NCBI GenBank assembly: GCA_035283165.1 | Contig: DATEUK010000007.1 | Location: 1-58,296 of the forward strand | Source of the DNA: Thermoplasmata archaeon | Lineage (GTDB): Archaea > Thermoplasmatota > Thermoplasmata > RBG-16-68-12 > EA-27 | Direction of reading: 5' to 3' | DNA: 58,296 bases | Shown: piece by piece, positions 6,056-46,165 of the stretch | Layout of the letters: every line of letters begins with the position of its first letter | Numbering within the stretch: position 1 is the first letter of the stretch | Notes under the pieces: model-generated | Seen by the model: the letters and a program-made list of their open reading frames with translations, nothing else | The model's database searches: none | Told to the model about the DNA's origin: nothing | Translations under genes and position numbers: made by a program

Positions 6056-6694
6056 ATCTGCTTCCGAGGACACGGATTATCCCTCCCCACAGCTCGTCCG
6101 CGTCCACCGCGTCCAAGACAGATCTGAGGCGCTCTATCCATCGGTTCGCCTCAGGCCGTTCGTCCGCACGATCGCGAGAGGACAGCCTCGTCGCCATGAG
6201 TCACCCTGCGTGCCGAGATCGAACGATCCTAACTGGGTCGAAATGGACGCAACCTCGACGAGGGGTCCTTCCTGGACAACGATCATGCCGAATTCGCAGG
6301 CCGGGCAGACCGCACGGTCCGAATGTGACGCAGGACGGCGGATCCGGTTCGCCGCAAGCTTGAAATAACCTGGGGAATCCGTCCCAATCTTCCCTTGTAC
6401 CTCCAAGCTTCTCCTCGCCCGAGGCGATTACGTGTCAGACCTCAATGGAATAGGGTGGATCGCATTCGGACGTGGGAGGGCCCCAGGTGCGATCGGATCG
6501 GCCGGGGCGCTCCTCCGGCCGCTGCGCACGGTCCCTGTTGGCTGCGGGGTTCCGACGCACGCCGATGATGTCCAGGTTGCCATCGATCCCGTCCGGGGCG
6601 CCATTCCCGTGTGGAAGCAGTCAGACGCGACGACCGTCCGTGTCAGCGCTAACGTACTATACTCCAGGAACCTCTACCTCCCCCGGGGTGCCCT

Positions 6695-9600
6695 ATGAGG
6701 AGAGTCGGTCCGACGGCGGTCGTGGGCCTTCTCGTCCTCGGCGGCTTGTTGGGCGTCCTCACACTCTCCTCGCGAGTTGCAACGGCAAACACCCTTTACG
6801 TCGGCGGCGGAGGTCCGGGAAACTACACGAGCATCCAGGCAGCGGTGAACGCCGCGTTCCCCGGGGACACGGTGTTCGTTTACAGCGGTAACTACACGGA
6901 GAATGTGACCGTGACCAAGACCTTGAACCTCGTGGGTGAAGGCATGGAGACGACCTTTCTCCACGGCGCTGGAGCGTATTATACCCTTAACGTGGGGGCG
7001 GACTGGGTGAATGTCACGGGGCTCAGCGTGGTTGGGGGTGTGGCATATGAAACCGTCTTTGGCATAGGGATGAGTGGCCATCACAATAGGATCTTTCGCA
7101 ACAACGCCTCCATCCGTTTTGATGCGACCCTGTGGGCGTACACCACAATCACGGACAACGTAATCCACCGGATCTCACGCGAGAGTAGCGCCTTTGTCCA
7201 TCCTGGCCTTCAGGTCCGTTCTTCATCATTCGTCACCATTGACGCTAACACCTTTCCCGACAGCGGAATCGACCTATGGGACTCAACCGACGTTACCATC
7301 ACCGCCAACAACTTCACCTCGGTCGCGGATGTCAGCGCGGGCGTTGGTTTCGGGCCCCTCAGTCAATGGGTACATGGTTCCCTCGCCAACCATAACTCCC
7401 ACACCATCACGCCAGACAACCTGGTCAACGGGAAGCCCCTCTACTACCACAAGAACTGCAGTGGCCTCACCGTGGATGGCGTCCCACTGGGACAACTGAT
7501 CGTGGTGAATTGCACCGCTGTGCAGATCTCCCATCTCCAGCTGGCGAATCCCGCACCGCCAATCTACGTGGCCTATTCCAACGGAGTGAACATCTCCACC
7601 AGCAACGTCGCCTCATACATCCTTTCCTTGCAGTCCTCCGACCTCTCCATTGTCAGCAATACCGTAGGCTTCATCTCCCTTTGGTATACTACCAACGCCC
7701 GTCTCATCGCCAACTACATCGACTTCGGTACCGATGTCGCCATTAGCTCCAGCGTCGTCATCAGCGGTAACATCATCTACGATGGATCTGTCCGTTTACA
7801 TTGGTGCAATGACATCCAGGTTACGGATAACCACATCACCAGCTCTGACTTCGCTGCGATCGAGGTCGGCGGGCCGGGTCCCTGGGGATACCGTACTTGT
7901 TCGAATGTCGTCATCCTTCGGAACACACTCGAGAGCAACTATGTGATTTATTACATCATCAGCGTCACATTGGGCTCCTCCATCCTGACCGTGCACCACA
8001 ATAACATTGGCACGACCCAGGGCGGGGGTTATGGGACCGTTTCAGATGAAGGATCCGGAACTACTTGGGACGACGGGTACCCCAGCGGGGGTAACCATTG
8101 GTGGGATTACACCGGCGTGGATCTGCTCAGCGGTCCGAACCAGGATCTGCCGGGGACCGACGGCATCGGCGACACTCCCTATGTGATCGACTCCGACTCG
8201 ATTGACCGATATCCCCTGATGAGCCCGATGGTTCCTGGTACAATGCCCGTCCTCTCCGCGACAGGCGAGCCGAACTACGGGACGGACGGTGTGGACCCGG
8301 AGACGGGCACCCTCGGAGCGACGTTCACGTACCGCGTGAGCTACCTCGACGCGGACAACGACTTTCCCCTGGCGGGCGACCCGAAGGTCCACATCCGGAA
8401 GGGCAGCGTCGAGATCGCCGGCAGCCCCTTCACCATGACCGCCGTCGACCCGCTCGACGCGGACGTCACGGACGGGAAGCTGTACACCTACACGACGACC
8501 CTCACCTCACGTGGCACCGACTACACCTACGAGTTCACCGCCAGCGACGCCGTGGGGCTCGCCGCGGCGGACTGGCCCGCCCCGCCCGCGGACGCGCCGG
8601 ACGTGCTGAACCGCCCCCCGACCGCGGACGCGGGACCCGACCAGAACGTGCCCAAGGGGACCCTCGTCACGCTGGACGGTGCGCTCTCCAGAGACCCGGA
8701 CAACGACCCTCTCTCCTACACGTGGGCCGCCCCGCCGGGCATCGCCCTCTCCAGCGCGAACGTCCCCATGCCGACCTTCACCGCCACGCGGACCGGCACG
8801 TTCCCCTTCACCCTCACCGTGGACGACGGCGACCCCGCCAATGGCACAGACACCGACACGGTCGTCATCACGGTCTGGGGCCTGCCGCCGGTGGCGAACC
8901 TCACCGCGGATCGGATGCGCGCGAACGTCGGCGGGGCCTTCCTCTTCAGCGGCGCGGGGTCCACCGACGCGGACGGCAGCATCGCTGCCTACCTCTTCGA
9001 GTTCGCGGACGGCACGGACCAGACCGGCGGGAGCGACACCGCCATGCACGCGTACGCCGCGCCGGGGAGCTACGTCGTGCGCCTCACCGTTTGGGACGAT
9101 GACGGGAACGCGAGCGCCGCCGACACGCTGACGGTCACCGTCAATGCACCGCCGGTCGCCTCGGGCACGGTGACCCCCGCGTCGGGCACGCTGGCGACAA
9201 CGTTCACATTCACGAGCACCTCCACGGACTCCGACGGGACGATCGTCACGACCTCCTGGGACTTTGGGGACGGCGCGACGGACTCCGGGACGCCGGTCAC
9301 GCACGCCTACGCGACGCGCCAGACGTTCACGGTCACCCTCACGGTCTGGGACGACGACGGCGCCACCGCCACGTCTACCCTTTCGGTGTCCGTCGGGAAC
9401 CTCCCACCGACGGCTGCGTTTGCGGTCACCCCGGCCTCCGGGGACGTGGCCACCGAGTTCACGTTCGACGGATCCGCCTCCACGGACGACGGCACGATCG
9501 TCGCCTACGCCTGGGACTTCGGAGACGGGACGACGGGCTCGGGGGTCGTCGTGACCCACCGGTACTCGCGCAACGGATCGTTCGCGGTCACTCTTACCGT

Positions 9601-10213
9601 GACGGACGACGGCGGCCTCGAGGGGAACGCGACAGCTTCCGTAGCGGTGTCCCGGGCTCCCGGATTGGACGACGGGACGGTCATCGGAATCATCGGGATC
9701 ATCATCGGGGCGATCATCGTGGCCCTCTGGCGGCTGCGCGTCCTATGGTTCCCGTACTTCATCCTCTGGTGTTACACGAAGCTCCGGAAGGACGAGGTGC
9801 TCGACAATTTCCTGCGTGGCCGGATCTACGAATACGTCCGCCTCAACCCCGGCGACGCGTACACGGAAATCAAGCGGAACCTCGACCTGTCCAACGGTCC
9901 GCTTCTCTATCATTTGGCGGTGCTGGAGCGGGAAGAGCTCGTGCGCTCCATCCAGCAGGGCTCCCGGAAGCGGTTCTATCCGAACGACGTGGCGGTACCG
10001 GAAGACGGGGGCCTCCACGCGCTTCAGGCTCGCATCCTCGAGGCCCTTCGCGGGGAGCCCGGAGTCGCCGTGACGGAGTTGGCGATGGCTCTTGGTGTCA
10101 GCCGCCACGTGGCGCTGTATCACATCCGCAAACTCGTCCGCTCGGACCTCGTCCGCCTCGAACGTCGGATGGCGCGACTGCGGGCGTACCCAGTCCGCCC
10201 GTCGTCTCGATGA
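6695..10213 (+). CDS. Membrane-anchored surface protein: signal peptide, parallel beta-helix repeats, ~5 PKD/Ig-like domains, TM span(s), and a cytoplasmic double winged-helix (wHTH) tail
   Basis: MRRVGPTAVVGLLVLGGLLGVLTLSSRVATA is the signal peptide. Beta-helix repeats include ITDNVI, ITANNF, VSNTVG, ISGNIIYDG and VTDNHI. PKD signatures are PPTADAGPDQ plus WDFGDG three times. The TM span is GTVIGIIGIIIGAIIVALW (9674-9733). The tail (9776-10210) has two wHTH modules. Confidence 0.85.
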   Translation: MRRVGPTAVVGLLVLGGLLGVLTLSSRVATANTLYVGGGGPGNYTSIQAAVNAAFPGDTVFVYSGNYTENVTVTKTLNLVGEGMETTFLHGAGAYYTLNVGADWVNVTGLSVVGGVAYETVFGIGMSGHHNRIFRNNASIRFDATLWAYTTITDNVIHRISRESSAFVHPGLQVRSSSFVTIDANTFPDSGIDLWDSTDVTITANNFTSVADVSAGVGFGPLSQWVHGSLANHNSHTITPDNLVNGKPLYYHKNCSGLTVDGVPLGQLIVVNCTAVQISHLQLANPAPPIYVAYSNGVNISTSNVASYILSLQSSDLSIVSNTVGFISLWYTTNARLIANYIDFGTDVAISSSVVISGNIIYDGSVRLHWCNDIQVTDNHITSSDFAAIEVGGPGPWGYRTCSNVVILRNTLESNYVIYYIISVTLGSSILTVHHNNIGTTQGGGYGTVSDEGSGTTWDDGYPSGGNHWWDYTGVDLLSGPNQDLPGTDGIGDTPYVIDSDSIDRYPLMSPMVPGTMPVLSATGEPNYGTDGVDPETGTLGATFTYRVSYLDADNDFPLAGDPKVHIRKGSVEIAGSPFTMTAVDPLDADVTDGKLYTYTTTLTSRGTDYTYEFTASDAVGLAAADWPAPPADAPDVLNRPPTADAGPDQNVPKGTLVTLDGALSRDPDNDPLSYTWAAPPGIALSSANVPMPTFTATRTGTFPFTLTVDDGDPANGTDTDTVVITVWGLPPVANLTADRMRANVGGAFLFSGAGSTDADGSIAAYLFEFADGTDQTGGSDTAMHAYAAPGSYVVRLTVWDDDGNASAADTLTVTVNAPPVASGTVTPASGTLATTFTFTSTSTDSDGTIVTTSWDFGDGATDSGTPVTHAYATRQTFTVTLTVWDDDGATATSTLSVSVGNLPPTAAFAVTPASGDVATEFTFDGSASTDDGTIVAYAWDFGDGTTGSGVVVTHRYSRNGSFAVTLTVTDDGGLEGNATASVAVSRAPGLDDGTVIGIIGIIIGAIIVALWRLRVLWFPYFILWCYTKLRKDEVLDNFLRGRIYEYVRLNPGDAYTEIKRNLDLSNGPLLYHLAVLEREELVRSIQQGSRKRFYPNDVAVPEDGGLHALQARILEALRGEPGVAVTELAMALGVSRHVALYHIRKLVRSDLVRLERRMARLRAYPVRPSSR

Positions 10214-10314: not shown

Positions 10315-10608
10315 ATGCAGTTTGTCGTAACCCAGATGCATGCGCCGAGCGACTGCCCGAGCGACGAGCCCGAGGTGCTGAAGAGGCTTGGGCGCGACTT
10401 CTCCGAGGGGGAGGCCCGCAAGAAGGGCGTGAAGCTCCTCGGCGCGTACATCGCACCGCTCGAGCACACATTCTTCTTCATCCTCGAAGCGGACAGTCTG
10501 GCCAAGGTGACGGAGTTCCTGAAGCCCGCCGCCAAGCTCGGGACCGCGAAGGTCACGCCCGTCGACGAGTTCCAGAAGGTCGTGCGGCAACTGTCGCGGG
10601 GGCGCTGA
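10315..10608 (+). CDS. Small hypothetical protein (97 aa)
   Basis: ATG 10315 lies inside track ORF 9745..10608. It reads MQFVVTQMHAPSDCPSDEPEVLKRLGR...GAYIAPLEHTFFFILEADSLAKVTEFL. Composition is protein-like and third codon positions are G/C-rich. No family recognised with confidence. Confidence 0.55.
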   Translation: MQFVVTQMHAPSDCPSDEPEVLKRLGRDFSEGEARKKGVKLLGAYIAPLEHTFFFILEADSLAKVTEFLKPAAKLGTAKVTPVDEFQKVVRQLSRGR

Positions 10609-10707: not shown

Positions 10708-11238
10708 TCAGCGTCTCCCGAGGACATGGTCCGAGAACTCTTTCAGGAGTGCGGGAGAGCAGTACCAACCAGACCGGATCATCCGTTCCACGGTCTGCAC
10801 GGCCTCGGCACCGGTGACCCGCGTACGTTCGACCGCCAGGCCCAAAATGTACAGGGAACCTCCGAGTGACACGTCCAGCGCCCGGGCGGCGGCGCGGAGG
10901 TCCCGGTCGTCGGCCACGAGTCGGCCGCCGACCTCCACGGCCAGACCAAGCGACGTCGCGTCGGCGGTGGAGAGACGGGGACTCTCGCGGATTCGGTCCA
11001 CAAGCCTCCGGTTCCGCACACGGCGAACCTCGATCGCGCCCTCGCGGAGCATCCGTGTCAAGAGAAGGTGCTCGGGCGTCCCGGGTCCTCGGCCCTCGGC
11101 CGACACCTCGTCCCGAACCTCATCCGCGATCACGATTCGAGCGCCGAGTCTCGTAACATGGGGAAGGAACCCGGCCGCGGACAGGGCGATGAGGGGCGCC
11201 GCGTCGAACACGAGCGTCTCTTGGCGGGGCATGACCAA
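10708..11238 (-). CDS. PIN-like nuclease toxin (DUF3368 / COG2405-type)
   Basis: LVFDAAPLIALSAAG, IADEVRDEV, LSTADATSLGLAVEVGGRLVADDRDLR and GSLYILGLAVE. It lies 6 nt downstream of a UPF0175-like antitoxin gene. Confidence 0.75.
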   Translation of the reverse strand: MVMPRQETLVFDAAPLIALSAAGFLPHVTRLGARIVIADEVRDEVSAEGRGPGTPEHLLLTRMLREGAIEVRRVRNRRLVDRIRESPRLSTADATSLGLAVEVGGRLVADDRDLRAAARALDVSLGGSLYILGLAVERTRVTGAEAVQTVERMIRSGWYCSPALLKEFSDHVLGRR

Positions 11239-11244
11239 CCTGCC

Positions 11245-11544
11245 TCACCGGCGAACGCCACGCAGATCCTCCATGAGATCGTCGTCGACCCAGGCGATGT
11301 GGCGGTCCCGGGCGAGGGACATGATCTCCCAGATGCTCACCTTCGCGATCTCTGCGGCCCGGGACAGCGTGGCCTTCCGCTCGGACAGGAGGCGCAACGC
11401 TCGCTCACGCCGGTATCCCTCAAGCCCCAGGTGGAGGACCTTCCGGAGAGCGGCAGACTTTTCGAGGTGCTCCTCGCGCATGAGATCCTCGACCTCCTTC
11501 TCCATCTCCCGCGGGATCCGGGCAGAGACCGTGACTTCGGTCAT
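11245..11544 (-). CDS. Antitoxin with an RHH-like N-terminus plus a UPF0175-type HTH
   Basis: Internal ATG at 11544 of track ORF 11245..11640. It reads MTEVTVSARIPREMEKEVEDLMREEHLEKSAALRKVLHLGLEGY...ATLSRAAEIAKVSIWEIMSLARDRHI. Confidence 0.7.
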   Translation of the reverse strand: MTEVTVSARIPREMEKEVEDLMREEHLEKSAALRKVLHLGLEGYRRERALRLLSERKATLSRAAEIAKVSIWEIMSLARDRHIAWVDDDLMEDLRGVRR

Positions 11545-11553
11545 GCTTCCATA

Positions 11554-11568
11554 GTATGCATTGCATAC
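11554..11568. promoter_or_regulatory. Perfect palindrome GTATGCA-T-TGCATAC; candidate operator of the TA promoter
   Basis: 7-bp arms, 10-24 nt upstream of the antitoxin ATG (11544), within the only AT-rich patch of this intergenic region. Confidence 0.4.
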
Positions 11569-11801
11569 AAATGAACCTTGCGCCCTGGTTCCGTGGGACC
11601 AGGGGTTGGACGCACAATCGCCAGGACCGCTGCGAGGCAATCGGAAGGACCATGGCGGGTGGCCGAGAGACTGTGCGCGCTGCGACTTCTCGGCCGATTC
11701 AGACGTGGGGCCGCTGCAAGGTGCCCTGAGGGGACCATGGACGACTCATGGACTCTGAAGGCCCACCTCGCGGGGTGAGGGGGCCAATTCGAGAGGAGCA
11801 G

Positions 11802-13614: not shown

Positions 13615-16600
13615 TCACGCAGCGTAGTACGCCTCGTCGTACGGCTCGGGCGCGAGTCCCTTGCGCTCCCGGATTCCCCGGACGACGTCTCCCTGGAGGT
13701 CCGACGGAACCGGCTGGAAACCGGCGTTCTCCGTGGACCAGAGGACGCGGCCCTGCGTCGCGCCGCGGATGGCGGTCGCGAACCCGAACATCGCCGCCAC
13801 AGGGACCTTCGCGGAGATCTTCGTGACCTCGCCCTCCTGCTGAATGTCCTCGATGGTGCCGCGCCGACTCTGCACGTCGCCGATCGCGGCGCCCATCACG
13901 TCCTGCGGAAGGTCGAGGAACAGCTTCTGTTTCGGTTCCATGAGGATCCGCTCGCCCTGGACCATCGCCCCATAGATCGCGCTCCGAACGGCCGGAATCA
14001 CTTGCGCAGGGCCGCGGTGCACGCTGTCCTCGTGCAGTTTCGCGTCGACGAGGCGGATCTTCATCGCCATGCACTTCTCCTGTGCGAGCGGGCCCTTCGT
14101 CATCGCCTCCGTGTAGGCTTCCTTCACGAGCTCCATCGTCTCGTTCAGGTACTGGATCCCCTTCGTCGCGTCGATCAGCATGTTCGTGTCCTTGATCCAC
14201 ACGACGTTCTTAGCCTCGTCCTTGTCCATCCCGAGATCCTGCAGCTGTCTCGCGAGCGCCTTCGCGTCCTTGATGCGCTGGCCGCTGGGGATCGCCCCCT
14301 CGTGGATCGCCGCCACGATCGCGTCGGCGAGCGGTTCCGCCTCGACGTAGAAGCGATTGTGTCTGTTCGGGGACTTCCCCTCGAACGGGCCGCCCGCCCC
14401 GCGGACGCGCTCCCGGTACACGACGATCGGCGCGCTCGCGGTGATGGGGACCTTGTAGTCGTTCACGATCCGGTACTGCGTGATCTCCAGGTGGAGCTCG
14501 CCCATCCCCGACATAAGGTGCTCGCCCGTCTCCTGGTTGATGTCCACCTCGATGCTCGGGTCCGCCTTCGCGATCTTCCGGAGCACCTCGACGAGCTTGG
14601 GCAGATCCGCGGTGGCCTTCGCCTCGATCGCGACGGTGACGACCGGCTCCGAGTAGTGCACGATGGGCTCGAACGCCTGCATCGACCGATCGTCGCTGAC
14701 CGTGGACCCCGCGATCGCGTCCTTCAGGCCGATGACGGCGACCACGTTCCCCGCGTCGATCTCTTCGACCGGGACCCTCTCCGGCCCCACGATCATCGCG
14801 ACGGTCTGAACGCGCTGTGGATGCGGCATCCCGGACACCCAGAGCTCTTGGCCGCGTCGGATCCTCCCGCTGAACAGGCGGCCCGCGGCGACCTCCCCCG
14901 CCTGGGGGTCGACGATGATCTTCGTCACCATGTAGGCGACGGGGGCATCCTCCTTCACCTTCGTCATCGCCTTCCCGACGGGGCTCTCGGGGTCTCCCTT
15001 CCAGATCACGGGGATCCGCATCGGCTGGGCGACGAGCGGGTTCGGCAGGTGGTGGATGACCATGTCGAGGACGACCTGGTGGAGCGGCGCCCGCTTGCTG
15101 AGGTCGTCCTGCTTCTCCTCCGACAGGTAGCGGTAGATCTCCTTGAACGTGATCCCCGTCTTCTTCATGTACGGCACGGAGATCGCCCACTTGTTCCGCG
15201 CGCTGCCGAACGCGACGTTCCCTGCCTCGACGTTCAGCGCCCACGGTCCCTTCAGCTCGTCGGGGAGGATCTTCCTGATGCGGACGTTGACGTCCGTGAT
15301 GATCTTCACGAACCGCTGCTGCATGCGGTCCGCGTCCAGCTTCAGCTCGTTGATGAGGCGGTCCACCTTGTTGATGAATAAGACGGGCTTCACGCGCTCC
15401 TTCAGCGCCTGCCGGATGACGGTCTCCGTCTGCGGCATGACGCCCTCGACCGCGTCCACGAGGATGATCACGCCGTCGATCGCACGCATCGCGCGGGTGA
15501 CGTCACCGCCGAAGTCCACGTGGCCGGGCGTGTCGATCAGGTTGACGAGGTACGCCTTCCCGTCGAACTGATGGACCATCGAGGCGATCGCAGCATTGAT
15601 CGTGATGCCTCGCGCCTGCTCCTGCTCGTCGAAGTCCATGAACAGCTGCGTGCCGGCCAGTTCCTCGCTCATCATCCCTGCGCCGGCGATTAGCGAATCG
15701 GATAGCGTCGTGTTGTGAACAAAGAAGCCCTCAGCCACGAAATTTCGCGGGCCAGGAACAGAGAAGTCGTAGACCCATTCTTCCTCGACTCGATGAACGC
15801 TGTGAACTTCGACGAAAGCGACATCTTGATTGAGGACTGGCTCGAGTTCCTCGAAATCGCTCCCGGCCATGAGGATTAGGGATGCTGAGGATGGCTTCTG
15901 TTCCAGACGTGCGTAGGTTCTCGTCTTCCACGTGTTCGTTTGCAGTCTGTTCCAGTTGACGGGGACGAGATCCACCACATAGGAGGGACCGGCTCGTGCT
16001 TCCAGGCCCGCCTGTCGGCTCGATTTCTCAGAATCGTGCAGCCGCGGGAATCGAGAGAGGTTGGTTCGGCCGGAGACGTACAATGTGGAGTGCGACACGC
16101 CTTGATCGAGGATAGCTCGCACCCCCAAGCGCAGGAGCAGGAGCTGGAGGTCGCCTAGGAAGGTGGGGGACGCACTAGTCGCGGTCACCGCGCGCCGGCC
16201 TGATTCGACAGAGCCGTCTGCGTCGAAGTATCCCTGAACAAAGGCCCTGACCGTTGATATCGGGGCCGTGAATAGGAGATCGGGTAGCCGCATCGTTCGC
16301 GCCTTCGCGAGAAGAGGGTAGCCGAGGACGACATGAAGAAACATCAAGAGAGTCTTCGATCGACTCTCGACGCGCGGGACCCGCGGGGGATGGCGGGCGA
16401 TCGCGGGCTTTGGGACGAATCCCTGAAGCGACGCCAACACCTCGTGAATGAGATCCTCGTCCGCCCCGTGAAGGAATCCATTCCCGTCACCGTCTCCGTA
16501 GAGAAGGCCAAGGTATCGGAAGAATCGCTCCATAGAGGCCCGCTTCGGCAAGTACATCGGGGACGCTGCTTTCTTCGTACCGACCCTGTAGGTCACGCGC

Positions 16601-18688: not shown

Positions 18689-19267
18689 CTAGCGACGGAC
18701 GTACGCCGGCGGTGGGGGAGGGGGCGGGGGCACGGAGGCCGCGATGACCGAACTGCAGTAGGGGCAGACGGGGGTCTCCCCGACCAGGAACTGCCGCTGC
18801 ACGTTCGCGCCGCAGCGCGGGCACGCGCCTACGAACATCGATTGGCCGATCGCTTCGGGGACCACGAACTCGTTCGCCGCCCGATCGATGAAGCCGCGCA
18901 CGAGCCCCCGGTCCACCACGGTGACGAGCAGTTTTTCCGTCTCCATCTCACTCTTCCCGAGCTTCCGCGCGAGGTCCGCGAGGCCAATCCGGCGGTACGC
19001 CCGGACCCATCCGGAGAACTCCTCGAGCTCCTTTGCGAACGCGCGCGCCTTGAAGCCGCGCCAGATCAGGAGCGCCCCGGGCACGATGGCGACCCCCGTG
19101 CAGAAGGCTCCGACAATGAGGCTCTGCCCCGCCTCAAACGCGGGCGTGCCCCGGGGCGGGCTCATCGTGAGCACGATCGCCGTGAGGACCATGACGATGC
19201 CGCCGACGAGGAGCAGCGCGCCGAGTGTGAAGTACGTCTTGTCCTTCATCCGCACCCAAGTCGACAC
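18689..19267 (-). CDS. Hypothetical membrane protein: 2 TM spans, a winged-helix-like domain, a zinc ribbon and a poly-Pro tail
   Basis: TM spans FTLGALLLVGGIVMVLTAIVL and LIVGAFCTGVAIVPGALLIW. Then IGLADLARKLGKSEMETEKLLVTVVDRGLVRGFID, the ribbon CPRCG...CPYC, and the C-terminus VPPPPPPPPAYVRR. Confidence 0.65.
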   Translation of the reverse strand: MSTWVRMKDKTYFTLGALLLVGGIVMVLTAIVLTMSPPRGTPAFEAGQSLIVGAFCTGVAIVPGALLIWRGFKARAFAKELEEFSGWVRAYRRIGLADLARKLGKSEMETEKLLVTVVDRGLVRGFIDRAANEFVVPEAIGQSMFVGACPRCGANVQRQFLVGETPVCPYCSSVIAASVPPPPPPPPAYVRR

Positions 19268-38491: not shown

Positions 38492-38513
38492 GGGTTCACG
38501 AGCCGCTCCGGCG

Positions 38514-38522
38514 CTATAAAGG
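38514..38522. promoter_or_regulatory. TATA element in the divergent region between the radical-SAM gene and the 428-aa gene
   Basis: CTATAAAGG on plus, CCTTTATAG on minus. On the minus side GTG 38491 follows after 23 nt. Confidence 0.35.
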
Positions 38523-38586
38523 AAACGCCCTGACTCTCGCGGACGCACGCGAAGGTTCATTCGAAGCGTGCGGCTTCCGCCGCAGG

Positions 38587-40987: not shown

Positions 40988-43900
40988 CTACAACTCGGGC
41001 TCGTCCTCGCGCGGCTTCGGTTCCACCGCAACCCCATCTCTCGGCTCGGCCCCTATCCCCGCGTCCTCGATCTCTTCCCTCGTGCCGACTTCCACTTCAT
41101 CCTCGGGCTTCTTCCGTCGTCGCCAGGCCGCGAGAACGAACAGGCCAAAGAGCACCAGGATTGCGAGGATCACGACGATGAGGAGAACGGTCTCGACTCG
41201 CGTCAGAGGGTTGGCGGGCTCGACGACGATGGTTACGGTGTCCGATGCAGACGCGTCCGTGCCGTCGCTCACGATCAGGGAGAACACGTACGTTCCGGCG
41301 GCGGTCGCGGCGAACGCGGGGGTCGCGCTGTTCGCGTTCGTGAGGGTCACGCTCGGCGGCCCGCTGATCCCCGTCCACGTGTACGTGAGTGGGTCGCCGT
41401 CGGGATCGGAGCTGAGCGTTCCATCCAGGGTCACGAGCGCGCCCACGATGACGGTCCGCTGGTCCGGCCCGGCGTTCGCGGTCGGAGGTCGGTTCATTGC
41501 GCCCACGGCGACCGTGTCCTGCGAAAGCCCGCCGTTGTCGTCCATGACGTCGACCCGAAACGTGTAGACACCGCTCGTTGGCGGCGTGAACGTGGGCGTC
41601 GCGGTGTTCGGGCCCGTCAGCGAGACCGCCAGTCCGGAGACCTGAAACCACGCGAAGCTCAGCGTGTCTGGGTCCGGGTCCGAGGAGAGGCTGGCGTCGA
41701 GCGTGACAAGGCTCCTCTTGAGCACGTCTTGATCCTGTCCAGCGTTCGCGATCGGCGGGCGGTTCCCGACCCCGATCGTGAGAGTGTCCGTGTCGAATTG
41801 GTCGATCGCGTCCCAGACCGTCAGGGTGACCGTGAACGTGGCCCGCGTGGCGTACAGGTGCGTGGCCGTCTCCGTGGTCGCGGTGTCGCCGTCCCCGAAG
41901 TCCCACCGCCACGCGACGATCCCCTGGTCGTCCGCCGACGCGGAGCCGTCGAAAGAGAAGGTCGTTGCGAGCGTGCCCGTCTGGTCGGGCCCTGCGTCGG
42001 CATCTGGCGGGAGGTCGACCGTGATCGTCACGGAGAGCGTCGCGTCGTCCGTGCTCCCTTCGTCGTCCGTCACCGTGAGCGTCGCCACGTACGTGCCGGC
42101 GGCGGCGTACGCGTGCGCGGCGGTCGTCGGCGGCCCGCCCCCGTTCGCGGAGTTCCCGTCCCCGAAGGCCAGCGTCCACGAGGCGATCGTGCCGTCGGGA
42201 TCCGTGGACACGGAACCGTCGAACGTGATCGTCTGTCCGGTCAACGCGCTCAGCCGGTCCGCGGTGAGGTCCGCGACCGGGGCCATGTTCCAGACGTCCA
42301 CCGCCACGTCGTCCGTGTCCGTCCCGCCGTCGAGGTCGTCCACCGCGAGGCGGAGCATGTAGAGGCCAGCGATCGTCGGGGTGAACGTCGCCGTCGCGGC
42401 GTTCGGATTCGCAAGGATTATCACAATCGGCCCGCCGATCTGCGTCCAAGAGAAGGACAGCGGGTCGCCGTCGGGATCAGCGGACCCGGTGCCGTCCAGC
42501 GTGACGACGACCCCCTTCAGGAAGCCCGCCTGGTCCGGGCCCGCGTTCGCGATCGGCGGTCGGTTCACCACGTTGATCGTAAGCGCGTCCGTGTCGTTCT
42601 GATTGAAGGCGTCCCAGACGGTCAGGGTGACCACGAAAATGCTTCTCGTAGCATAGGTGTGCGCGGCTACCTGCGTGGTCGCCGTGCTCCCGTCTCCGAA
42701 ATCCCACAGCCAGCGGACGACCCCGTGGTCGTCCGTCGAGGCGGACGCGTCGAAGCTGAACAGTGTGGCCAGGGTCCCCGTCGTCCCCGGGGTCACCGCA
42801 GCCACCGCGGTGGGCGGGTCGTCTACGAAGACCGTCACGAGAACGGTCGCGGTGTCGGAGGCCCCCTCGTCGTCCCAGACCGTGACGTTGACCGCGTAGG
42901 TGCCCGCGGCGGCCCACGCGTGCGGGACGAGGGAGGTCGTGACGTTTCCCGAGCCGCTGCCGTCCCCGAAGGTGAAGTTGTACTGCACGATCGTGCCGTC
43001 GCCGTCCACCGATCCGCGCGCGTCGACATCGGCGAGGGCGCCGGTCTGCAAGGGGTTCGGGGTCACGGTCAGGTTCCCCGTCGGCGCGGCGTTCGCGACG
43101 CTGACGGACACGGAGTCGCTCACGTTCGTGCCCTCGGGGTCGTAGACAAAGAGGTCGAAGGTGTAGATTCCGGCGCCCGCAGTCGTGAAATTCGTGATCG
43201 CCGCAAACGGCGTCGTAAGGGTCACGCGACTTGGGCCGCCGGTCTGCCACCAGAAGTAGGTGATCGGCTCAGCGTCGGGGTCCGAGCTGTTCGAGCCGTT
43301 GAGCGTCACGTTGGAGAACTTCGCCGCGTTCTGATCGGGGCCCGCATCTGCGACCGGGGGTCGGTTCGCGACCGTGACGTTCGTGCCGTCCGTCTCGTTC
43401 GTCCCGAGCGGGTCCGTGACTCTCAGGGAGAATATATAGACACCCGAGGCGAACGCCCCGTTCGAGGCCGTGAACGAGGCGATGGCGGTGTCGGGACCGT
43501 TCAGGGTCACGGGCTGGGGGCCCGCGGTCTGCGTCCAATTGTACGCGAGCAGGTCCCCGTCCGGGTCCACGCTCGCCGAGCCGTCGAGGGCCACGAGGGC
43601 GTTCTCGAACGTCATCTGGTCGGGCCCGGCGTCCGCAATCGGGCCCTGGTTCAGGATGACAACGTCGATCCAGTCGGAGTCGGATTCGGTCCGGTTATCT
43701 GTGACCGTGAGGTTGAACGTGTACGTCCCGACCATCGTCGGCACGACGGAGGCGACGCTCGTGTCCGCGTCGGGGATCGGGAGGAGATTCGGGCCGGCCA
43801 CCTGCGTCCAGTTGAAGGTGATCGGGTCGCCATCCGGGTCGAAGCTCGCGCTCCCGTCCAGCGTGACCGTCGCGTTGCGCACAGACATCTGGTCCGGCCC

Positions 43901-46165
43901 CGCGTTCGCCACGGGCGGGCCGCTGAGGGCGTCGATCGATATCTTCGCCACGAAGACGTCGCCGGTGCCGCCGGAACTCGCGTTGAAAGCACCGGGGGTC
44001 ACCGGGAAGTCGATGGAATCCGTGGCTCCGGTCACGTAGGCGCTCCCGCCTGAATAAGCGTTCGAGAAGGCAACGTCGCCGCCTCCACCGCCGCCGAGGT
44101 AGGTCGAATAGAGGAGGGAGCCGCCCGTGGGGTCCAGCTTCGCCACGAAGGCGTCGCACACTCCGTCGAATCCCATGTCGTAGGCACCAGGGGTCACCGG
44201 GAAGTCGGTGGAGAACGTGCCTCCGGTCACGTAGGCAGCGCCGCTTGAGACAGCGATCGAAAAGCCAACGTCCCAGTCTACGCCGCCGAGGTAGGTCGAA
44301 TAGAGGAGGGAGCCGCCCGTGGGGTCCAGCTTCGCCACGAAGGCGTCCCCGCCAGTTCCTCCAGTCGTGTTGAAAGCACCGGAAGTCACCGGGAAGTCGA
44401 TGGAGAGCGTTTCTCCGGTCACGTAGGCAGCGCCGCTTGAGACAGCGATCGAAAAGCCCCTGTCCCAGTCTTCGCCGCCGAGGTAGGTCGAATAGAGGAG
44501 GGAGCCGCCCGTGGGGTCCAGCTTCGCCACGAAGGCGTCCCCAAGGGTACCTCCAGTCGTGTTGAAAGCACCGGGGGTCACCGGGAAGTCGGTCGAGTCC
44601 GTGAATCCGGTCACGTAGGCAGCGCCGCTTGAAACAGCAATCGAAAAGGCCCTGTCCCAGTTTACGCCGCCGAGGTAGGTCGAATGGAGGAGGGAGCCGC
44701 CCGTGAGGTCCAGCTTGGCCACGAAGGCGTCTCCGGCGATCCCTCCGGTCGTGTTGAAAGCACCGGGGGTCACCGGGAAGTCGGATGAATACGTTTCTCC
44801 GGTCACGTAGGCGTGGTCGGTTGAGACAGCGATCGAAAAGCCAACGTCCCAGTCTACGCCGCCGAGGTAGGTCGAATAGAGGAGGGAGCCGCCCGTGGGG
44901 TCCAGCTTGGCCACGAAGGCGTCTCCGGCGATCCCTCCGGTCGTGTTGAAAGCACCGGGGGTCACCGGGAAGTCGGTCGAGTCTGTGAATCCGGTCACGT
45001 ATGCGCTACCGTTGGAAACCGCGATCGAACGGCCAATGTCATAGCCCGCACCGCCGAGGTAGGTCGCGTATAGAAGGGAGCTGCCCGCGGGGCTAAGCTT
45101 GGCGACAAAGGCATCCCCAAGGGAACCTCCGGTCGTGTTGAAAGCGCCGGGAGTCACCGGGAAGTCGGTCGAGTCTGTGAATCCGGTCACGTATGCGCTA
45201 CCGTTGGAAACCGCGATCGAACGGCCAAAGTCGTAGCCTGCTCCCCCGAGGAGGGCCGCGTAAACGAGCGGGTCGATGAGAAGGGGACGGGACTCGTCCA
45301 TGCCTCGGCAGTCGAATCCGCTGGTCAGCCGAGAACGGAGAGCGAAAGCGCAGGGAACGAGATTCTCCCCCTGGTAGGCCACCGGAGCGGTGTCCCGGAC
45401 AGGCCCTAGGAGCGTGTGGACCCGCAGATCGCCGGTCTCGCCCACCTCAAGGCCGTCGGCCCCCTCATATGACAGAGCGATTACGGTCGGGTCCGCGCCC
45501 GGGTCGAGGCGGAACTCGTACTTCAGCCCCTCCGAGCCGAACCGGTACACGAGGTCGATACCCTCGTAGAGGCCCTCGTACACGACTTCGGAGTAGCTCC
45601 GCACGTGGGTCCGCCACGCCGCGGGATCGTTCCCGAGGAAGAAGTGGCTTCGGTGCGGCAATTCACCGCGGCCTTTGGGGACGATGGGGTTCGCCCCTTC
45701 GAAAGTAAGGCGGATGAGGACGCCTCGCGCGGTGGAGAGAGGTTCAGCGTCGGTCAGGCCCGCCCGTTCCGTTGAAAGAAGGTCCACTCGCGCCGGGGGG
45801 GAGCGCTCTTGCAACTTGAAGAGCACGCCGGAGGGGATGAACCCGACATCCATGCTGCCCGAGGACGTGTAGAACCGCACGTCCCGATTCCCTACCTGGC
45901 CAGCGTTTTCCGAGAATCCCGCGCCGAGGAGGGTCCCCAAGGCATCGGAGCCCGGAATCGGAATCGTGGGAGGGGTGAGGTTGTCGGAGGTGGCGGTGGA
46001 AGTCGCGCCCGGAGGCGGCGCGAGCAGGAGCAGAGCCCCTCCGACCGCGGCTACCAGCAGATTTCGGCTCGTCGCCCCCAGGCATCGCCGGCCCCTCACG
46101 TCCAATCCTCCTCGACTCGGGCCATCGAATCTCGTTCGCTTAACCTTTGTGACACCGCATATCAC
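40988..46165 (-). CDS. Giant surface protein (1725 aa): signal peptide, 7 SBBP beta-propeller repeats, ~10 PKD/Ig-like domains, TM anchor and an acidic tail
   Basis: The SBBP unit is AYVTGFTDSTDFPVTPGAFNTTGG..DAFVAKLDPTGGSLLYSTYLGG. The PKD linkers (N)RPP(V/I/T)A(N/D)AGPDQ recur. C-terminal TM span VLLIVVILAILVLFGLFVLAAW. Confidence 0.85.
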   Translation of the reverse strand: MICGVTKVKRTRFDGPSRGGLDVRGRRCLGATSRNLLVAAVGGALLLLAPPPGATSTATSDNLTPPTIPIPGSDALGTLLGAGFSENAGQVGNRDVRFYTSSGSMDVGFIPSGVLFKLQERSPPARVDLLSTERAGLTDAEPLSTARGVLIRLTFEGANPIVPKGRGELPHRSHFFLGNDPAAWRTHVRSYSEVVYEGLYEGIDLVYRFGSEGLKYEFRLDPGADPTVIALSYEGADGLEVGETGDLRVHTLLGPVRDTAPVAYQGENLVPCAFALRSRLTSGFDCRGMDESRPLLIDPLVYAALLGGAGYDFGRSIAVSNGSAYVTGFTDSTDFPVTPGAFNTTGGSLGDAFVAKLSPAGSSLLYATYLGGAGYDIGRSIAVSNGSAYVTGFTDSTDFPVTPGAFNTTGGIAGDAFVAKLDPTGGSLLYSTYLGGVDWDVGFSIAVSTDHAYVTGETYSSDFPVTPGAFNTTGGIAGDAFVAKLDLTGGSLLHSTYLGGVNWDRAFSIAVSSGAAYVTGFTDSTDFPVTPGAFNTTGGTLGDAFVAKLDPTGGSLLYSTYLGGEDWDRGFSIAVSSGAAYVTGETLSIDFPVTSGAFNTTGGTGGDAFVAKLDPTGGSLLYSTYLGGVDWDVGFSIAVSSGAAYVTGGTFSTDFPVTPGAYDMGFDGVCDAFVAKLDPTGGSLLYSTYLGGGGGGDVAFSNAYSGGSAYVTGATDSIDFPVTPGAFNASSGGTGDVFVAKISIDALSGPPVANAGPDQMSVRNATVTLDGSASFDPDGDPITFNWTQVAGPNLLPIPDADTSVASVVPTMVGTYTFNLTVTDNRTESDSDWIDVVILNQGPIADAGPDQMTFENALVALDGSASVDPDGDLLAYNWTQTAGPQPVTLNGPDTAIASFTASNGAFASGVYIFSLRVTDPLGTNETDGTNVTVANRPPVADAGPDQNAAKFSNVTLNGSNSSDPDAEPITYFWWQTGGPSRVTLTTPFAAITNFTTAGAGIYTFDLFVYDPEGTNVSDSVSVSVANAAPTGNLTVTPNPLQTGALADVDARGSVDGDGTIVQYNFTFGDGSGSGNVTTSLVPHAWAAAGTYAVNVTVWDDEGASDTATVLVTVFVDDPPTAVAAVTPGTTGTLATLFSFDASASTDDHGVVRWLWDFGDGSTATTQVAAHTYATRSIFVVTLTVWDAFNQNDTDALTINVVNRPPIANAGPDQAGFLKGVVVTLDGTGSADPDGDPLSFSWTQIGGPIVIILANPNAATATFTPTIAGLYMLRLAVDDLDGGTDTDDVAVDVWNMAPVADLTADRLSALTGQTITFDGSVSTDPDGTIASWTLAFGDGNSANGGGPPTTAAHAYAAAGTYVATLTVTDDEGSTDDATLSVTITVDLPPDADAGPDQTGTLATTFSFDGSASADDQGIVAWRWDFGDGDTATTETATHLYATRATFTVTLTVWDAIDQFDTDTLTIGVGNRPPIANAGQDQDVLKRSLVTLDASLSSDPDPDTLSFAWFQVSGLAVSLTGPNTATPTFTPPTSGVYTFRVDVMDDNGGLSQDTVAVGAMNRPPTANAGPDQRTVIVGALVTLDGTLSSDPDGDPLTYTWTGISGPPSVTLTNANSATPAFAATAAGTYVFSLIVSDGTDASASDTVTIVVEPANPLTRVETVLLIVVILAILVLFGLFVLAAWRRRKKPEDEVEVGTREEIEDAGIGAEPRDGVAVEPKPREDEPEL
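43930..45270 (-). repeat. Seven tandem ~189-192-nt coding repeats (the SBBP blades) with long identical nucleotide runs
   Basis: For example, 44961-45036 and 45153-45228 are a 76-nt perfect repeat at 192-nt spacing. Confidence 0.85.

What the first reader, a model, noticed from the sequence alone, without database searches (positions are those of the whole stretch)
6695..10213. Huge beta-helix/PKD ectodomain tethered through the membrane to two cytoplasmic winged-helix DNA-binding modules
The 1172-aa product has these parts in order: a Sec signal peptide; ~480 aa of parallel beta-helix repeats (NosD/pectate-lyase-like); ~5 PKD/Ig-like domains; hydrophobic spans GTVIGIIGIIIGAIIVALW and VLWFPYFILWCY (9674-9775); and a 145-aa C-terminal tail. 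The tail is made of two wHTH modules (RGRIYEYVRLNPGDAYTEIKRNLDLSNGPLLYHLAVLEREELV; QARILEALRGEPGVAVTELAMALGVSRHVALYHIRKLVRSDLV). Topologically this resembles a ToxR/CadC-style membrane-bound one-component regulator, but with a ~1000-aa carbohydrate- or surface-binding type sensor. Alternatively the tail could anchor the chromosome or a partner protein to the envelope. The same logic recurs in this window: a cytoplasmic Zn-finger or wHTH, one TM span, and an extracytoplasmic domain (see 25605, 29313 and 18689).
Basis: partly seen in the sequence, partly recalled or inferred. Interest (0 to 1): 0.7.

Follow-up and report, generated by a model that had tools for sequence, protein, structure and literature searches.

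The report
Archaeal surface protein with DNA-binding tail
This gene encodes a large cell-surface protein of an uncultured Thermoplasmatota archaeon whose single membrane-spanning helix runs directly into two DNA-binding-type winged-helix domains inside the cell, and it belongs to a very large, unstudied family that may link what the cell touches outside to its DNA inside.

Summary
ORF 6695-10213 (+) encodes an intact 1172-aa type I membrane protein. In order it has a signal peptide, a ~480-aa right-handed beta-helix head, one unassigned Ig-like segment, four PKD domains, one strong TM helix (aa 994-1012), a 12-aa aromatic stretch, and a 145-aa tail of two duplicated ArsR/MarR-type winged helices.

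It is not a fusion artefact. The identical gene sits on an independent contig, and 2283 cluster representatives (E<=1e-10) match the TM+tail query; in the 150 best the match lies at the C-terminus, under highly varied adhesin- or enzyme-like ectodomains. Every member that carries an organism name is Thermoplasmatota.

AlphaFold2 (pLDDT 92.9) predicts that the TM helix, the aromatic stretch and helix 1 of the first winged helix form one continuous helix. Charge bias places the tail in the cytoplasm.

The nearest full-length relative shares the stalk, TM and tail at 75% identity but has an unrelated head. A GC3 step lies at the junction, so heads are swapped on a conserved chassis.

Best reading: a membrane-tethered one-component regulator. 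It is analogous to ToxR/CadC but has the opposite topology and a different DNA-binding fold. DNA binding is inferred, not shown. A structural tether is the main rival.

The parts
6655..6662 (+). Candidate archaeal TATA-like element (TACTATAC), centred about 36 nt upstream of the ATG
   Evidence: Read directly from the sequence. It is an AT-rich octamer in a ~67% GC window. It has not been tested. The sigma-70 scan is irrelevant for an archaeon.
6695..6787 (+). Sec-type signal peptide, aa 1-31 (MRR, hydrophobic core, A-T-A|N)
   Evidence: Hydropathy segment at aa 3-30, score 2.18. AF2 models a helix at aa 4-27. The A-x-A position before 'TLYVGGGG' is conserved in 43 homologues. No dedicated signal-peptide predictor was available.
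6788..8230 (+). Right-handed parallel beta-helix head (NosD/CASH-like), aa 32 to about 512, including the conserved C-terminal cap motif WDDGYPSGGN.W.DY.G.D...GDGIGDTPY
   Evidence: 990 homologues; the best 120 all carry PF13229+PF05048. NCBIfam NosD E 3.7e-14 but below cutoff. AF2 pLDDT is 85-97 over most of aa 40-390. Foldseek finds AlgE4, tailspikes, PL6 lyases and NosD. GC3 is 0.726 here against 0.894 in the rest of the gene.
8231..8629 (+). Unassigned, probably Ig-like segment, aa 513-645. It is the first part of the conserved 'stalk' shared with P0005.
   Evidence: No Pfam hit. The AF2 model is low-confidence with a few strands. The segment lies within the stretch that is 75% identical to P0005, whose breakpoint falls at VPGTMPVLS.
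8630..9646 (+). Four PKD domains, aa 646-984
   Evidence: PKD_4 E 7.6e-67 (4 stretches), PKD E 5.1e-46, K319L-like_PKD E 3.3e-28.
9674..9730 (+). Single transmembrane helix G994-W1012, with a glycine-zipper-like pattern GxxxGxxGxxxG
   Evidence: Kyte-Doolittle 19-residue window score 2.58. 127 of the 136 proteins surveyed with a non-N-terminal hydrophobic segment have it ending 140-199 aa from the C-terminus. It forms part of the continuous AF2 helix.
9731..9790 (+). Juxtamembrane segment, aa 1013-1032: RLR, a 12-aa aromatic/hydrophobic stretch VLWFPYFILWCY, then TKLRK. It aligns to the family-wide motif (TE.GK)-hydrophobic-PLYtRLkk.
   Evidence: Too short and too weakly hydrophobic for a TM. 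It is flanked by basic residues on both sides. It is conserved across the family. AF2 predicts it as the continuation of the TM helix.
9791..9991 (+). Winged helix 1, aa 1033-1099. The recognition helix is NGPLLYHLAVLER (aa 1067-1079) and the wing is VRSIQQ/RKRFYP.
   Evidence: PF24266 at 59.5 bits against a cutoff of 31. AF2 secondary structure. PDB sequence hits are 5DUK_A (E 2.8e-5) and PH1061.
10010..10192 (+). Winged helix 2, aa 1106-1166. The recognition helix is RHVALYHIRKLVR (aa 1137-1149) and the wing is VRLERR/RLRAYP.
   Evidence: HTH_20 E 6.8e-16, HTH_24 5.1e-12, HTH_5 (ArsR) 8.3e-9, MarR_2 1.3e-8. It is 41% identical to winged helix 1 over 59 aa, E 7e-12. Foldseek single-domain matches to ArsR/SmtB/CzrA/MarR have rmsd about 1 A.

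Best explanation
The product is a type I membrane protein of a Thermoplasmatota archaeon.

Shown by computation:
- After the signal peptide is removed, a beta-helix head of the glycan-binding or glycan-modifying type sits on a stalk of one Ig-like segment and four PKD domains outside the cell.
- A single glycine-rich TM helix crosses the membrane.
- According to AlphaFold2, this helix continues without a break through a short aromatic juxtamembrane stretch into helix 1 of the first of two tandem, internally duplicated ArsR/MarR-type winged helices in the cytoplasm.

Inferred:
- The tandem winged helices act as a covalent 'pseudo-dimer' that binds DNA from the membrane.
- Engagement or clustering of the ectodomain, for example on a polysaccharide or surface, changes the packing of the TM and juxtamembrane helices. 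This alters the geometry or local concentration of the DNA-binding tail. That would make it a transmembrane one-component regulator.
- Hundreds of different ectodomains share a nearly invariant tail, so the family probably converges on one common target rather than many specific regulons. The design is comparable to chemoreceptors, which pair variable ligand-binding domains with a conserved output domain.
For: Architecture and integrity.

Family-wide conservation of the TM + juxtamembrane motif + tandem wHTH at the extreme C-terminus:
- 5897 hits at E<=1e-3 and 2283 at E<=1e-10.
- All of the top 150 match at the C-terminus of proteins 143-1737 aa long.
- The TM position and N-terminal signal peptides are consistent across members.

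Cytoplasmic tail:
- K+R is 0.70 per 15 aa on the outer flank against 1.78 on the inner flank, with about 4 K/R in the juxtamembrane 19 aa.
- Net charge averages +2.4 for wHTH1 and +3.8 for wHTH2.
- N-glycosylation sequons are 1.44 per 100 aa in ectodomains against 0.57 in tails.

Structure of the tail:
- The AF2 model has pLDDT 92.9, with one helix spanning aa ~993-1050 followed by two canonical winged helices.
- Homology to DNA-binding wHTH families is above Pfam cutoffs.
- The ArsR-like 'YHL..L' and 'YHxR.L' recognition-helix signatures are among the most conserved columns.
- wHTH1 and wHTH2 arose by internal duplication.

Context in the literature:
- Transmembrane transcription regulators are an established class, also in archaea (PMC10269533).
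- The membrane-bound factors ArnR and ArnR1 have been studied experimentally in Sulfolobus (PMC6396743).
Against: - No DNA-binding, topology or expression experiment exists for any member. I found no paper on the family.
- The ectodomains are adhesin- or enzyme-type: PKD, Big_5, Beta_helix, NosD, CARDB. Classical sensor domains are not among them.
- There is no conserved neighbouring or target gene.
- There is no convincing operator-like repeat upstream; the only hit is one weak 12-nt inverted repeat.
- The best Foldseek matches to the two-domain arrangement are tandem-WH proteins that bind proteins or RNA as well as DNA: ESCRT-II, ScpB, SelB, TFIIIC. E-values are 4e-5 to 1e-3 and TM-scores only about 0.3.
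- In this particular protein wHTH1 has net charge -1.
- Topology rests on hydropathy, charge bias and AF2. No dedicated predictor was run.
Confidence: 0.5

Rival explanations
1. Structural tether. The protein is primarily a surface adhesin or enzyme. The conserved tandem winged-helix tail is a generic anchor that binds DNA non-specifically or binds a common cytoplasmic partner, in an ESCRT-II-like or ScpB-like protein-protein mode. It would couple envelope proteins to the nucleoid or to a cytoplasmic scaffold without regulating specific genes.
For: - The tail is nearly invariant under very different ectodomains, and also between paralogues in one genome.
- Heads are swapped on a constant stalk-TM-tail chassis.
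- The ectodomains are adhesin- or enzyme-type.
- The genes are scattered, with no conserved neighbours.
- Foldseek tandem-WH hits include ESCRT-II Vps25/22 (TMq 0.35-0.37) and ScpB.
- Other type I surface proteins in the same window carry other small cytoplasmic modules, such as a Zn ribbon.
Against: - Sequence profiles match DNA-binding regulator families, not ESCRT-II or ScpB.
- The conserved residues sit in the recognition helices and wings, and the tails are net basic.
- A simple TM with a short basic tail suffices as an anchor in neighbouring surface proteins. The cost of a conserved 145-aa module therefore suggests an output function.
Confidence: 0.25
2. Proteolytically released regulator. 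The protein is a membrane-held precursor. Ectodomain shedding followed by intramembrane cleavage releases the tandem-wHTH tail, which then acts as a soluble transcription factor, in an SREBP/ATF6-like or anti-sigma-like logic.
For: - The TM helices are rich in Gly/Ala, in the query and across the family. The motif (G)TE.GK at the cytoplasmic end of the TM is strongly conserved and could be a recognition site.
- A stand-alone single-wHTH relative exists: P0004, 103 aa, seen on 13 contigs.
Against: - AF2 predicts a rigid, continuous helix from the TM into wHTH1, with no flexible linker.
- The query clade lacks the TE.GK motif and has WRLRV instead.
- No protease gene is linked in any locus examined.
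- Nothing in the data tests cleavage.
Confidence: 0.15
3. The tail lies outside the cell. The two hydrophobic stretches form a helical hairpin, so the winged helices are extracellular and do not bind the chromosome.
For: Two hydrophobic stretches are separated by only three residues, RLR.
Against: - The second stretch is 12 aa, with 11-13 aa typical in the family members shown. That is too short to span a membrane.
- Basic residues flank both of its ends.
- AF2 gives one straight helix.
- Charge bias and sequon depletion fit a cytoplasmic tail.
Confidence: 0.04
4. Assembly or sequencing artefact that fuses a surface-protein gene to a regulator gene near 9.7 kb.
For: None found.
Against: - The identical gene is on an independent contig.
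- The 150 best of 2283 matching cluster representatives (E<=1e-10) all carry the module at the C-terminus, and a survey of those proteins shows the same TM placement and N-terminal signal peptides.
- P0005 is 75% identical straight across the PKD-TM-tail junction.
- The coding signal is uniform.
Confidence: 0.01

Closest known systems
Transmembrane transcription regulators (TTRs) as defined by Demey et al. 2023 (PMC10269533): any protein with at least one TM region and a DNA-binding domain
   Same: The protein has one TM helix plus Pfam DNA-binding domains (HTH_20, HTH_24, MarR_2). That census counted 635 HTH_20 and 601 HTH_24 TTRs and found single-pass proteins to be the commonest type.
   Different: The main text I read does not describe this family. 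PKD and Beta_helix were not found in the stored (partly truncated) supplements. Here the ectodomain is about 960 aa of adhesin- or enzyme-type modules, and the DNA-binding part is a duplicated wHTH at the C-terminus behind a signal-peptide-led type I topology.
ToxR / CadC (ToxR-like receptor family, bacteria)
   Same: Single-pass membrane protein with a winged-helix DNA-binding module in the cytoplasm and a sensing domain outside. The presumed logic is the same: a one-component regulator acting from the membrane.
   Different: ToxR/CadC have an N-terminal OmpR-type wHTH and a C-terminal periplasmic sensor, with no signal peptide (CadC as described in PMC5430869, listed; otherwise established knowledge). 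Here the order is reversed, and the fold family is ArsR/MarR-like and duplicated. No Trans_reg_C hit was found. The resemblance is analogy, not homology.
ArnR / ArnR1 of Sulfolobus acidocaldarius (archaeal membrane-bound transcription factors; PMC6396743)
   Same: Archaeal; an HTH factor held at the membrane; a one-component system.
   Different: ArnR has an N-terminal HTH, then HAMP-like and sensing domains, and two C-terminal TM helices. It has no large ectodomain. The order of HTH and membrane anchor is reversed relative to this protein, and there is no sequence relationship in my searches.
ArsR/SmtB and MarR winged-helix repressors; HVO_0163-type archaeal ArsR-like regulators (Pfam PF24266); PDB 5DUK and PH1061 (1UB9)
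   Same: Sequence and fold of each winged helix. HVO_0163 is called an ArsR-type transcription protein in PMC10294847.
   Different: Those are soluble proteins; ArsR and MarR act as homodimers. Here two copies are fused in one chain and welded to a TM helix. Metal-site residues of ArsR/SmtB were not examined.
Tandem winged-helix modules of ESCRT-II (Vps22/25/36), ScpB, SelB and TFIIIC
   Same: Two consecutive winged helices. These are the best Foldseek matches to the whole tail (E 4e-5 to 1e-3).
   Different: TM-scores are only about 0.3 with rmsd 8-20 A. There is no sequence similarity. These modules mostly bind proteins or RNA.
NosD / CASH right-handed beta-helix surface proteins of Thermoplasmata
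   Same: The head is 30-37% identical to hundreds of them, including the conserved C-terminal cap motif.
   Different: None of the 120 best head homologues carries an HTH domain. The query itself fails the Pfam and NCBIfam NosD thresholds.

Membership tests
Transmembrane transcription regulator (TTR, operational class of Demey et al. 2023) | At least one predicted TM region | tested here: met
   Hydropathy 2.58 at aa 994-1012. The TM helix position is conserved in the family.
Transmembrane transcription regulator (TTR, operational class of Demey et al. 2023) | A recognised DNA-binding domain | tested here: met
   HTH_20 58.4 bits (cutoff 27), HTH_24 45.6 (21.9), HTH_5 35.6 (22), MarR_2 35.3 (27), PF24266 59.5 (31).
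Transmembrane transcription regulator (TTR, operational class of Demey et al. 2023) | Actually binds DNA and regulates transcription | not testable with these tools
   This needs EMSA, DAP-seq or genetics. No member of the family has been studied, as far as the literature searches show.
ToxR/CadC-like receptors | OmpR/PhoB-type winged helix (Pfam Trans_reg_C) | tested here: not met
   No Trans_reg_C hit even at E<=10 on the tail.
ToxR/CadC-like receptors | DNA-binding domain N-terminal and cytoplasmic, sensor C-terminal and periplasmic | tested here: not met
   The order here is signal peptide, ectodomain, TM, wHTH tail.
ArsR/SmtB family | wHTH with the HTH_5/HTH_20 profile | tested here: met
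   Foldseek matches to SmtB, CzrA and ArsR have rmsd about 1 A over about 61 columns. NCBIfam HTH_metalloreg reaches only 35 bits, below its cutoff of 55.
ArsR/SmtB family | Homodimer through flanking helices, and metal-sensing sites | not tested
   No flanking dimerisation helices are seen in the AF2 secondary structure. Metal ligands were not analysed.
Pfam PF24266 (HVO_0163 N-terminal HTH) | Score above the gathering threshold | tested here: met
   50.9 bits for the full protein and 59.5 bits for the tail, against a cutoff of 31. 54 of 55 family members also match.
NosD (nitrous oxide reductase maturation) / Pfam Beta_helix | Profile score above the curated cutoff | tested here: not met
   No Pfam hit. 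TIGR04247 gives 52 bits against a cutoff of 300. The right-handed beta-helix fold class is supported by homologues and by structure search. NosD orthology is not supported.
PKD domain | Profile score above the cutoff | tested here: met
   PKD_4 221.8 bits, four stretches.
ESCRT-II / ScpB-type tandem winged helix | Structural superposition of both winged helices and sequence relationship | tested here: inconclusive
   Foldseek E about 2e-4, but TMq 0.3-0.37 and rmsd about 8 A. No sequence hit.

The most novel reading that the evidence does not exclude
The tandem winged-helix tail is not a gene-specific regulator. Instead it is a common cytoplasmic 'plug' shared by hundreds of interchangeable surface heads across Thermoplasmatota. 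It would physically couple envelope proteins to the chromosome or to a conserved scaffold such as the ESCRT machinery. This would be a previously undescribed envelope-to-nucleoid linkage system in archaea, with heads exchanged by recombination on a fixed stalk-TM-tail chassis.
Probability: 0.2. Interest if true: 0.8.

Novelty: new variant of a known kind. Interest (0 to 1): 0.5.

Why it matters
Signal transduction in uncultured Thermoplasmatota is almost unknown. The few membrane-bound transcription factors studied in archaea have a quite different design; ArnR, for example, has its HTH, HAMP and sensing domains followed by two C-terminal TM helices.

This family has thousands of members. In each, an outward-facing adhesin- or glycan-active module is joined by one rigid helix to a conserved DNA-binding-type tail. 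If the tail works as inferred, this would be a major and simple outside-in pathway in these abundant sediment, soil and marine archaea. It would also be an attractive minimal chassis for studying how a single TM helix transmits information.

The head-swap evidence further shows how such receptors or adhesins diversify.

Even if the tail turns out to be only an anchor, a conserved link between surface proteins and DNA or a scaffold would be new cell biology. The claim is directly testable with a 145-aa soluble fragment.

Tried and rejected
- Artificial fusion or frameshift: rejected.
- Second hydrophobic stretch as a true TM (tail outside): rejected as unlikely.
- Conserved operon partners or linked proteases: none found. 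I checked the window neighbours, which are an M20 peptidase, DUF3303, and a PIN-like (DUF3368) and a UPF0175-like gene, the last two on sub-threshold Pfam matches. I ran all-against-all ORF comparison of 8 related loci and examined five further contigs. The two closest relatives have PD40/Kelch beta-propeller genes upstream, but the window does not.
- Operator search: upstream of the gene there is only one weak 12-nt inverted repeat and no direct repeats. The upstream regions of 16 family genes share nothing general. The exception is an ~85-nt segment shared by tandem paralogues in one sub-clade.
- Other copies: no second copy of the tail module was found in the window.
- Word-indexed protein searches with the tail returned only fragments. 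The exhaustive representative search was needed.
- The search for related loci failed with the broad alignment. A narrower alignment worked but samples only close relatives, so the phyletic range beyond Thermoplasmatota is not established.
- Pfam on the head and on aa 511-652 gave nothing.
- Rfam and tRNA scans found only three tRNAs, none near the gene.
- Literature searches for the family, for HVO_0163, COG numbers and the Pfam name found no study.

Full report

Yes. The ORF 6695..10213 (+) starts with ATG and encodes 1172 aa. The third-codon-position GC bias typical of this ~67% GC window holds in frame along the whole gene. The identical 1172-aa product is called on an independent ENA metagenome contig, with the same downstream genes.

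Pfam finds four PKD domains at aa 646-984. In the last 145 aa it finds PF24266 (HVO_0163 N-terminal HTH, aa 1041-1099) followed by HTH_20, HTH_24, ArsR and MarR_2 (aa 1106-1157). All are above their curated cutoffs when the tail is scanned alone.

Hydropathy shows three features:
- an N-terminal signal-type segment, aa 3-30;
- one strong TM helix, G994-W1012;
- a 12-aa aromatic stretch, V1016-Y1027, that is too short and too weakly hydrophobic to span a membrane.

**2. The head**

Pfam gives nothing for aa 1-582. NCBIfam NosD reaches 52 bits against a cutoff of 300. The 'NosD/pectate-lyase-like' label therefore could not be taken from profiles of the query alone. Other evidence supports the fold:
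- A search with aa 1-642 found 990 homologues. The 120 best are 26-53% identical over their best local alignments, and all carry Pfam Beta_helix + NosD. Those with names are mostly Thermoplasmata 'right-handed parallel beta-helix repeat-containing proteins'.
- An AF2 model built on 43 of them is confident over about aa 33-440, with the short-strand periodicity of a beta-helix.
- Foldseek retrieves AlgE4 mannuronan epimerase, phage tailspikes, PL6 lyases and NosD. TM-scores are low, so only the fold class is claimed.

None of the 120 best head homologues carries an HTH domain. The segment aa 513-645 has no Pfam hit and a poor model.

**3. The tail and its connection to the membrane**

An AF2 model of aa 990-1172, built on a 35-sequence alignment, has mean pLDDT 92.9. 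It predicts a single uninterrupted helix from about aa 993 to 1050. This helix comprises the TM helix, the RLR triplet, the aromatic stretch, TKLRK and helix 1 of the first winged helix. Two canonical winged helices follow:
- wHTH1: helices at aa 1056-1063 and 1067-1079, with a beta-hairpin at aa 1083-1096.
- wHTH2: helices at aa 1109-1120, 1126-1133 and 1137-1149, with a hairpin at aa 1153-1166.

The two winged helices are 41% identical over 59 aa (E 7e-12). They are therefore an internal duplication, in effect a covalent version of the dimer that ArsR and MarR proteins form.

Foldseek against the PDB gives two kinds of match:
- For single domains: ArsR, SmtB, CzrA and MarR at about 1 A rmsd.
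- For the two-domain unit: tandem-WH proteins (TFIIIC, ESCRT-II, ScpB, SelB, RPC34) at E 4e-5 to 1e-3, but with TM-scores of only about 0.3.

By sequence, the closest solved structures are 5DUK_A ('putative DNA binding protein', E 2.8e-5) and PH1061.

**4. Topology**

No dedicated predictor was available, so I used indirect tests.
- In 127 of the 136 surveyed proteins that have a non-N-terminal hydrophobic segment, that segment ends 140-199 aa before the C-terminus. An N-terminal signal-type segment is present in most complete sequences.
- Across 117 aligned members, the 15 residues outside the TM hold 0.70 K+R and 1.74 D+E. The 15 residues after it hold 1.78 K+R and almost no acidic residues. 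The juxtamembrane 19 aa hold about 4 K+R.
- The winged helices are net basic on average, +2.4 and +3.8. In the query itself, wHTH1 is -1 and wHTH2 is +4.
- N-glycosylation sequons are 2.5-fold denser in the ectodomains than in the tails of the family.

Together with the straight AF2 helix, this places the tail in the cytoplasm. The 'tail outside' refutation condition is unlikely to be met.

**5. It is a member of a very large family**

An exhaustive phmmer search of 1.84 billion cluster representatives with aa 985-1172 gave 5897 hits at E<=1e-3, 2283 at E<=1e-10 and 61 at E<=1e-30. In all of the 150 best, the match lies at the extreme C-terminus of proteins 143-1737 aa long.

The family consensus is TM - (G)TE.GK - about 12 hydrophobic residues - PLYtRLkkeeVLDhFtRG.IyGYI.aNPGDHY..IK..L.L.NGtLaYHL.VLEREG.I.S..DG..KRFYP - linker - second wHTH. 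The query's own clade has WRLRV in place of TE.GK.

In 55 full-length members:
- the tail domains are found in 52-55 of 55;
- the ectodomains vary: PKD_4 (25), Big_5 (10), Beta_helix (10), NosD (7), Big_9, NPCBM_assoc, CARDB, CarboxypepD_reg, DUF11 and PPC;
- these are adhesin- or enzyme-type modules, and no classical sensor domain appears among the 25 commonest families.

Eight loci found in species-representative genomes are all Thermoplasmata, Methanomassiliicoccales or 'Methanobacteriota archaeon' MAGs. Every family member that carries an organism name is Thermoplasmatota. These are annotated 'winged helix-turn-helix transcriptional regulator', 'PKD domain-containing protein' or 'predicted transcriptional regulator'. 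Three loci carry two family genes each, adjacent in L005 and L006. The window has one copy.

**6. Head swapping**

The nearest full-length relative is P0005 (1077 aa). It is 75% identical to the query from the motif VPGTMPVLS (query aa ~514) to the C-terminus. That stretch covers the Ig-like segment, four PKD domains, the TM and the tail. Its head is unrelated: DUF7948 plus SBBP repeats. That head is 47% identical over 420 aa to the head of another giant surface protein in this same window, 40988..46165 (-). This other protein ends in a TM helix and a short acidic tail without winged helices.

In the query gene, GC3 steps from 0.726 in the head to 0.894 in the stalk and tail, at the same junction. 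I read this as recombinational exchange of heads on a conserved stalk-TM-tail chassis.

**7. Context**

The neighbours are an M20 peptidase, DUF3303, a PIN-like (DUF3368) and a UPF0175-like gene (both below Pfam's cutoffs), tRNA-Ala, S10 and EF-1alpha. They are functionally unrelated. Five other family genes sit among unrelated housekeeping genes. Only the two closest relatives share upstream PD40/Kelch propeller genes.

A TATA-like TACTATAC lies about 36 nt before the ATG. No convincing operator-like repeat was found.

**8. Mechanism**

Shown by computation:
- type I topology;
- a rigid helical connection from the TM into a duplicated, basic, ArsR/MarR-homologous tandem winged helix;
- family-wide conservation of that module under interchangeable heads.

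Inferred: the tail binds DNA at the membrane, and ectodomain engagement or clustering is transmitted through the glycine-rich TM and the aromatic juxtamembrane helix. This would be a transmembrane one-component regulator.

The recognition helices are nearly invariant, even between paralogues in one genome. The family therefore probably addresses one common target rather than many regulons. That fits a converging receptor family, but it equally fits a structural tether to DNA or to a common partner. I give 0.5 to the regulator model, 0.25 to the tether and 0.15 to proteolytic release.

**9. Comparison with known systems**

The protein meets the operational definition of a TTR (PMC10269533). It is not a ToxR/CadC member, because the topology is opposite and the DNA-binding domain is not OmpR-type. 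It is also unlike ArnR/ArnR1 of Sulfolobus, which have an N-terminal HTH, a HAMP domain and two C-terminal TM helices. HVO_0163, the name-giver of PF24266, is mentioned only as an ArsR-type protein induced by hypochlorite. I found no paper describing this family.

**10. Verdict**

This is a new variant of a known kind: a Thermoplasmatota-wide, type I family of putative transmembrane regulators with a tandem-wHTH tail and modular adhesin-like heads. Interest is moderate at 0.5. The family is large and unstudied, and the hypothesis is cleanly testable, but no function has been demonstrated and the general concept of membrane-bound regulators is established.

Noticed in passing
window 6695-8230 versus 8231-10213: GC3 steps from 0.726 in the beta-helix head to 0.894 in the stalk and tail. 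The step falls at the point where identity to P0005 begins (75% from aa ~514 onwards). This suggests a recombinational head swap, with the head possibly coming from a lower-GC donor.
   Followed up: partly
window 40988-46165 (-): A 1725-aa surface protein with DUF7948, SBBP repeats, about 10 PKD domains, a TM helix and a short acidic tail. Its head is 47% identical to the head of P0005, which is the closest relative of the query's tail. The same heads therefore occur with and without the winged-helix tail.
   Followed up: partly
window 18689-19267 (-): A 192-aa protein with hydrophobic, TM-like N-terminal segments (by reading the sequence), a PCI-like winged-helix segment (E 6e-5) and a C-terminal Zn ribbon (DUF7573, E 5.5e-5). 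It is another membrane-anchored WH protein, unrelated to the finding's tail.
   Followed up: partly
window 29313-31661 (-) and about 25605-26351 (+): The first is a 782-aa type I surface protein with no Pfam hit in the ectodomain, followed by a TM helix and a cytoplasmic CxxC...CxxC Zn-ribbon tail. The second has an N-terminal CxxC Zn finger, a TM helix and, by reading, a cyclophilin-like outside domain.
   Followed up: partly
window 13615-17268 (-): The EF-2 gene appears to be interrupted by an intein right after the GTP-binding motif AHIDHGK (C...VHN boundary residues). This was read from the translation only.
   Followed up: no
window 36275-38560 (-): This 761-aa ORF looks like a radical-SAM-type enzyme. 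Its cysteine motif (CNWLC...RYC) is split by what appear to be two intein-like insertions, CHPAGT...VVHNC and CFLPGT...VANC. This was read from the translation only.
   Followed up: no
window 49135-53310 (-): The isoleucyl-tRNA synthetase carries a long C-terminal extension. It contains several CxxC pairs, a Pro/Ala-rich linker and a further globular domain. This was read from the translation only.
   Followed up: no
L005 1806-1971 and 6335-6500; L006 789-954 and 6323-6488; L003 2499-2664: Adjacent family paralogues in two Thermoplasmata MAGs (L005 and L006), and a relative in a third, share a conserved ~85-nt segment upstream. It reads ..TTGAAATA..GTAAAA..CA.CAA..AC.TCTA...GGGATTG..TTG. It could be a duplicated promoter and 5' leader, or a shared regulatory site. 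It is absent upstream of the window gene.
   Followed up: partly
window 6056-6694: This 640-bp intergenic region upstream of the gene is unusually long. Its only sizeable ORF, 6134-6406 (-), 90 aa, has no Pfam hit. No Rfam family matches here.
   Followed up: partly
window 10708-11640 (-): A gene pair that looks like a toxin-antitoxin module lies just downstream: a DUF3368/PIN-like protein and a UPF0175-like small protein. Both Pfam matches fall below the curated cutoffs. A DUF3303 gene at about 10321-10608 (+) lies between it and the finding.
   Followed up: no
P0004 (103 aa; 13 contigs, longest 51 kb): A short stand-alone protein matches only the second winged helix of the tail (68% identity). 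It may be a soluble relative or a remnant. It bears on the 'released tail' idea.
   Followed up: no
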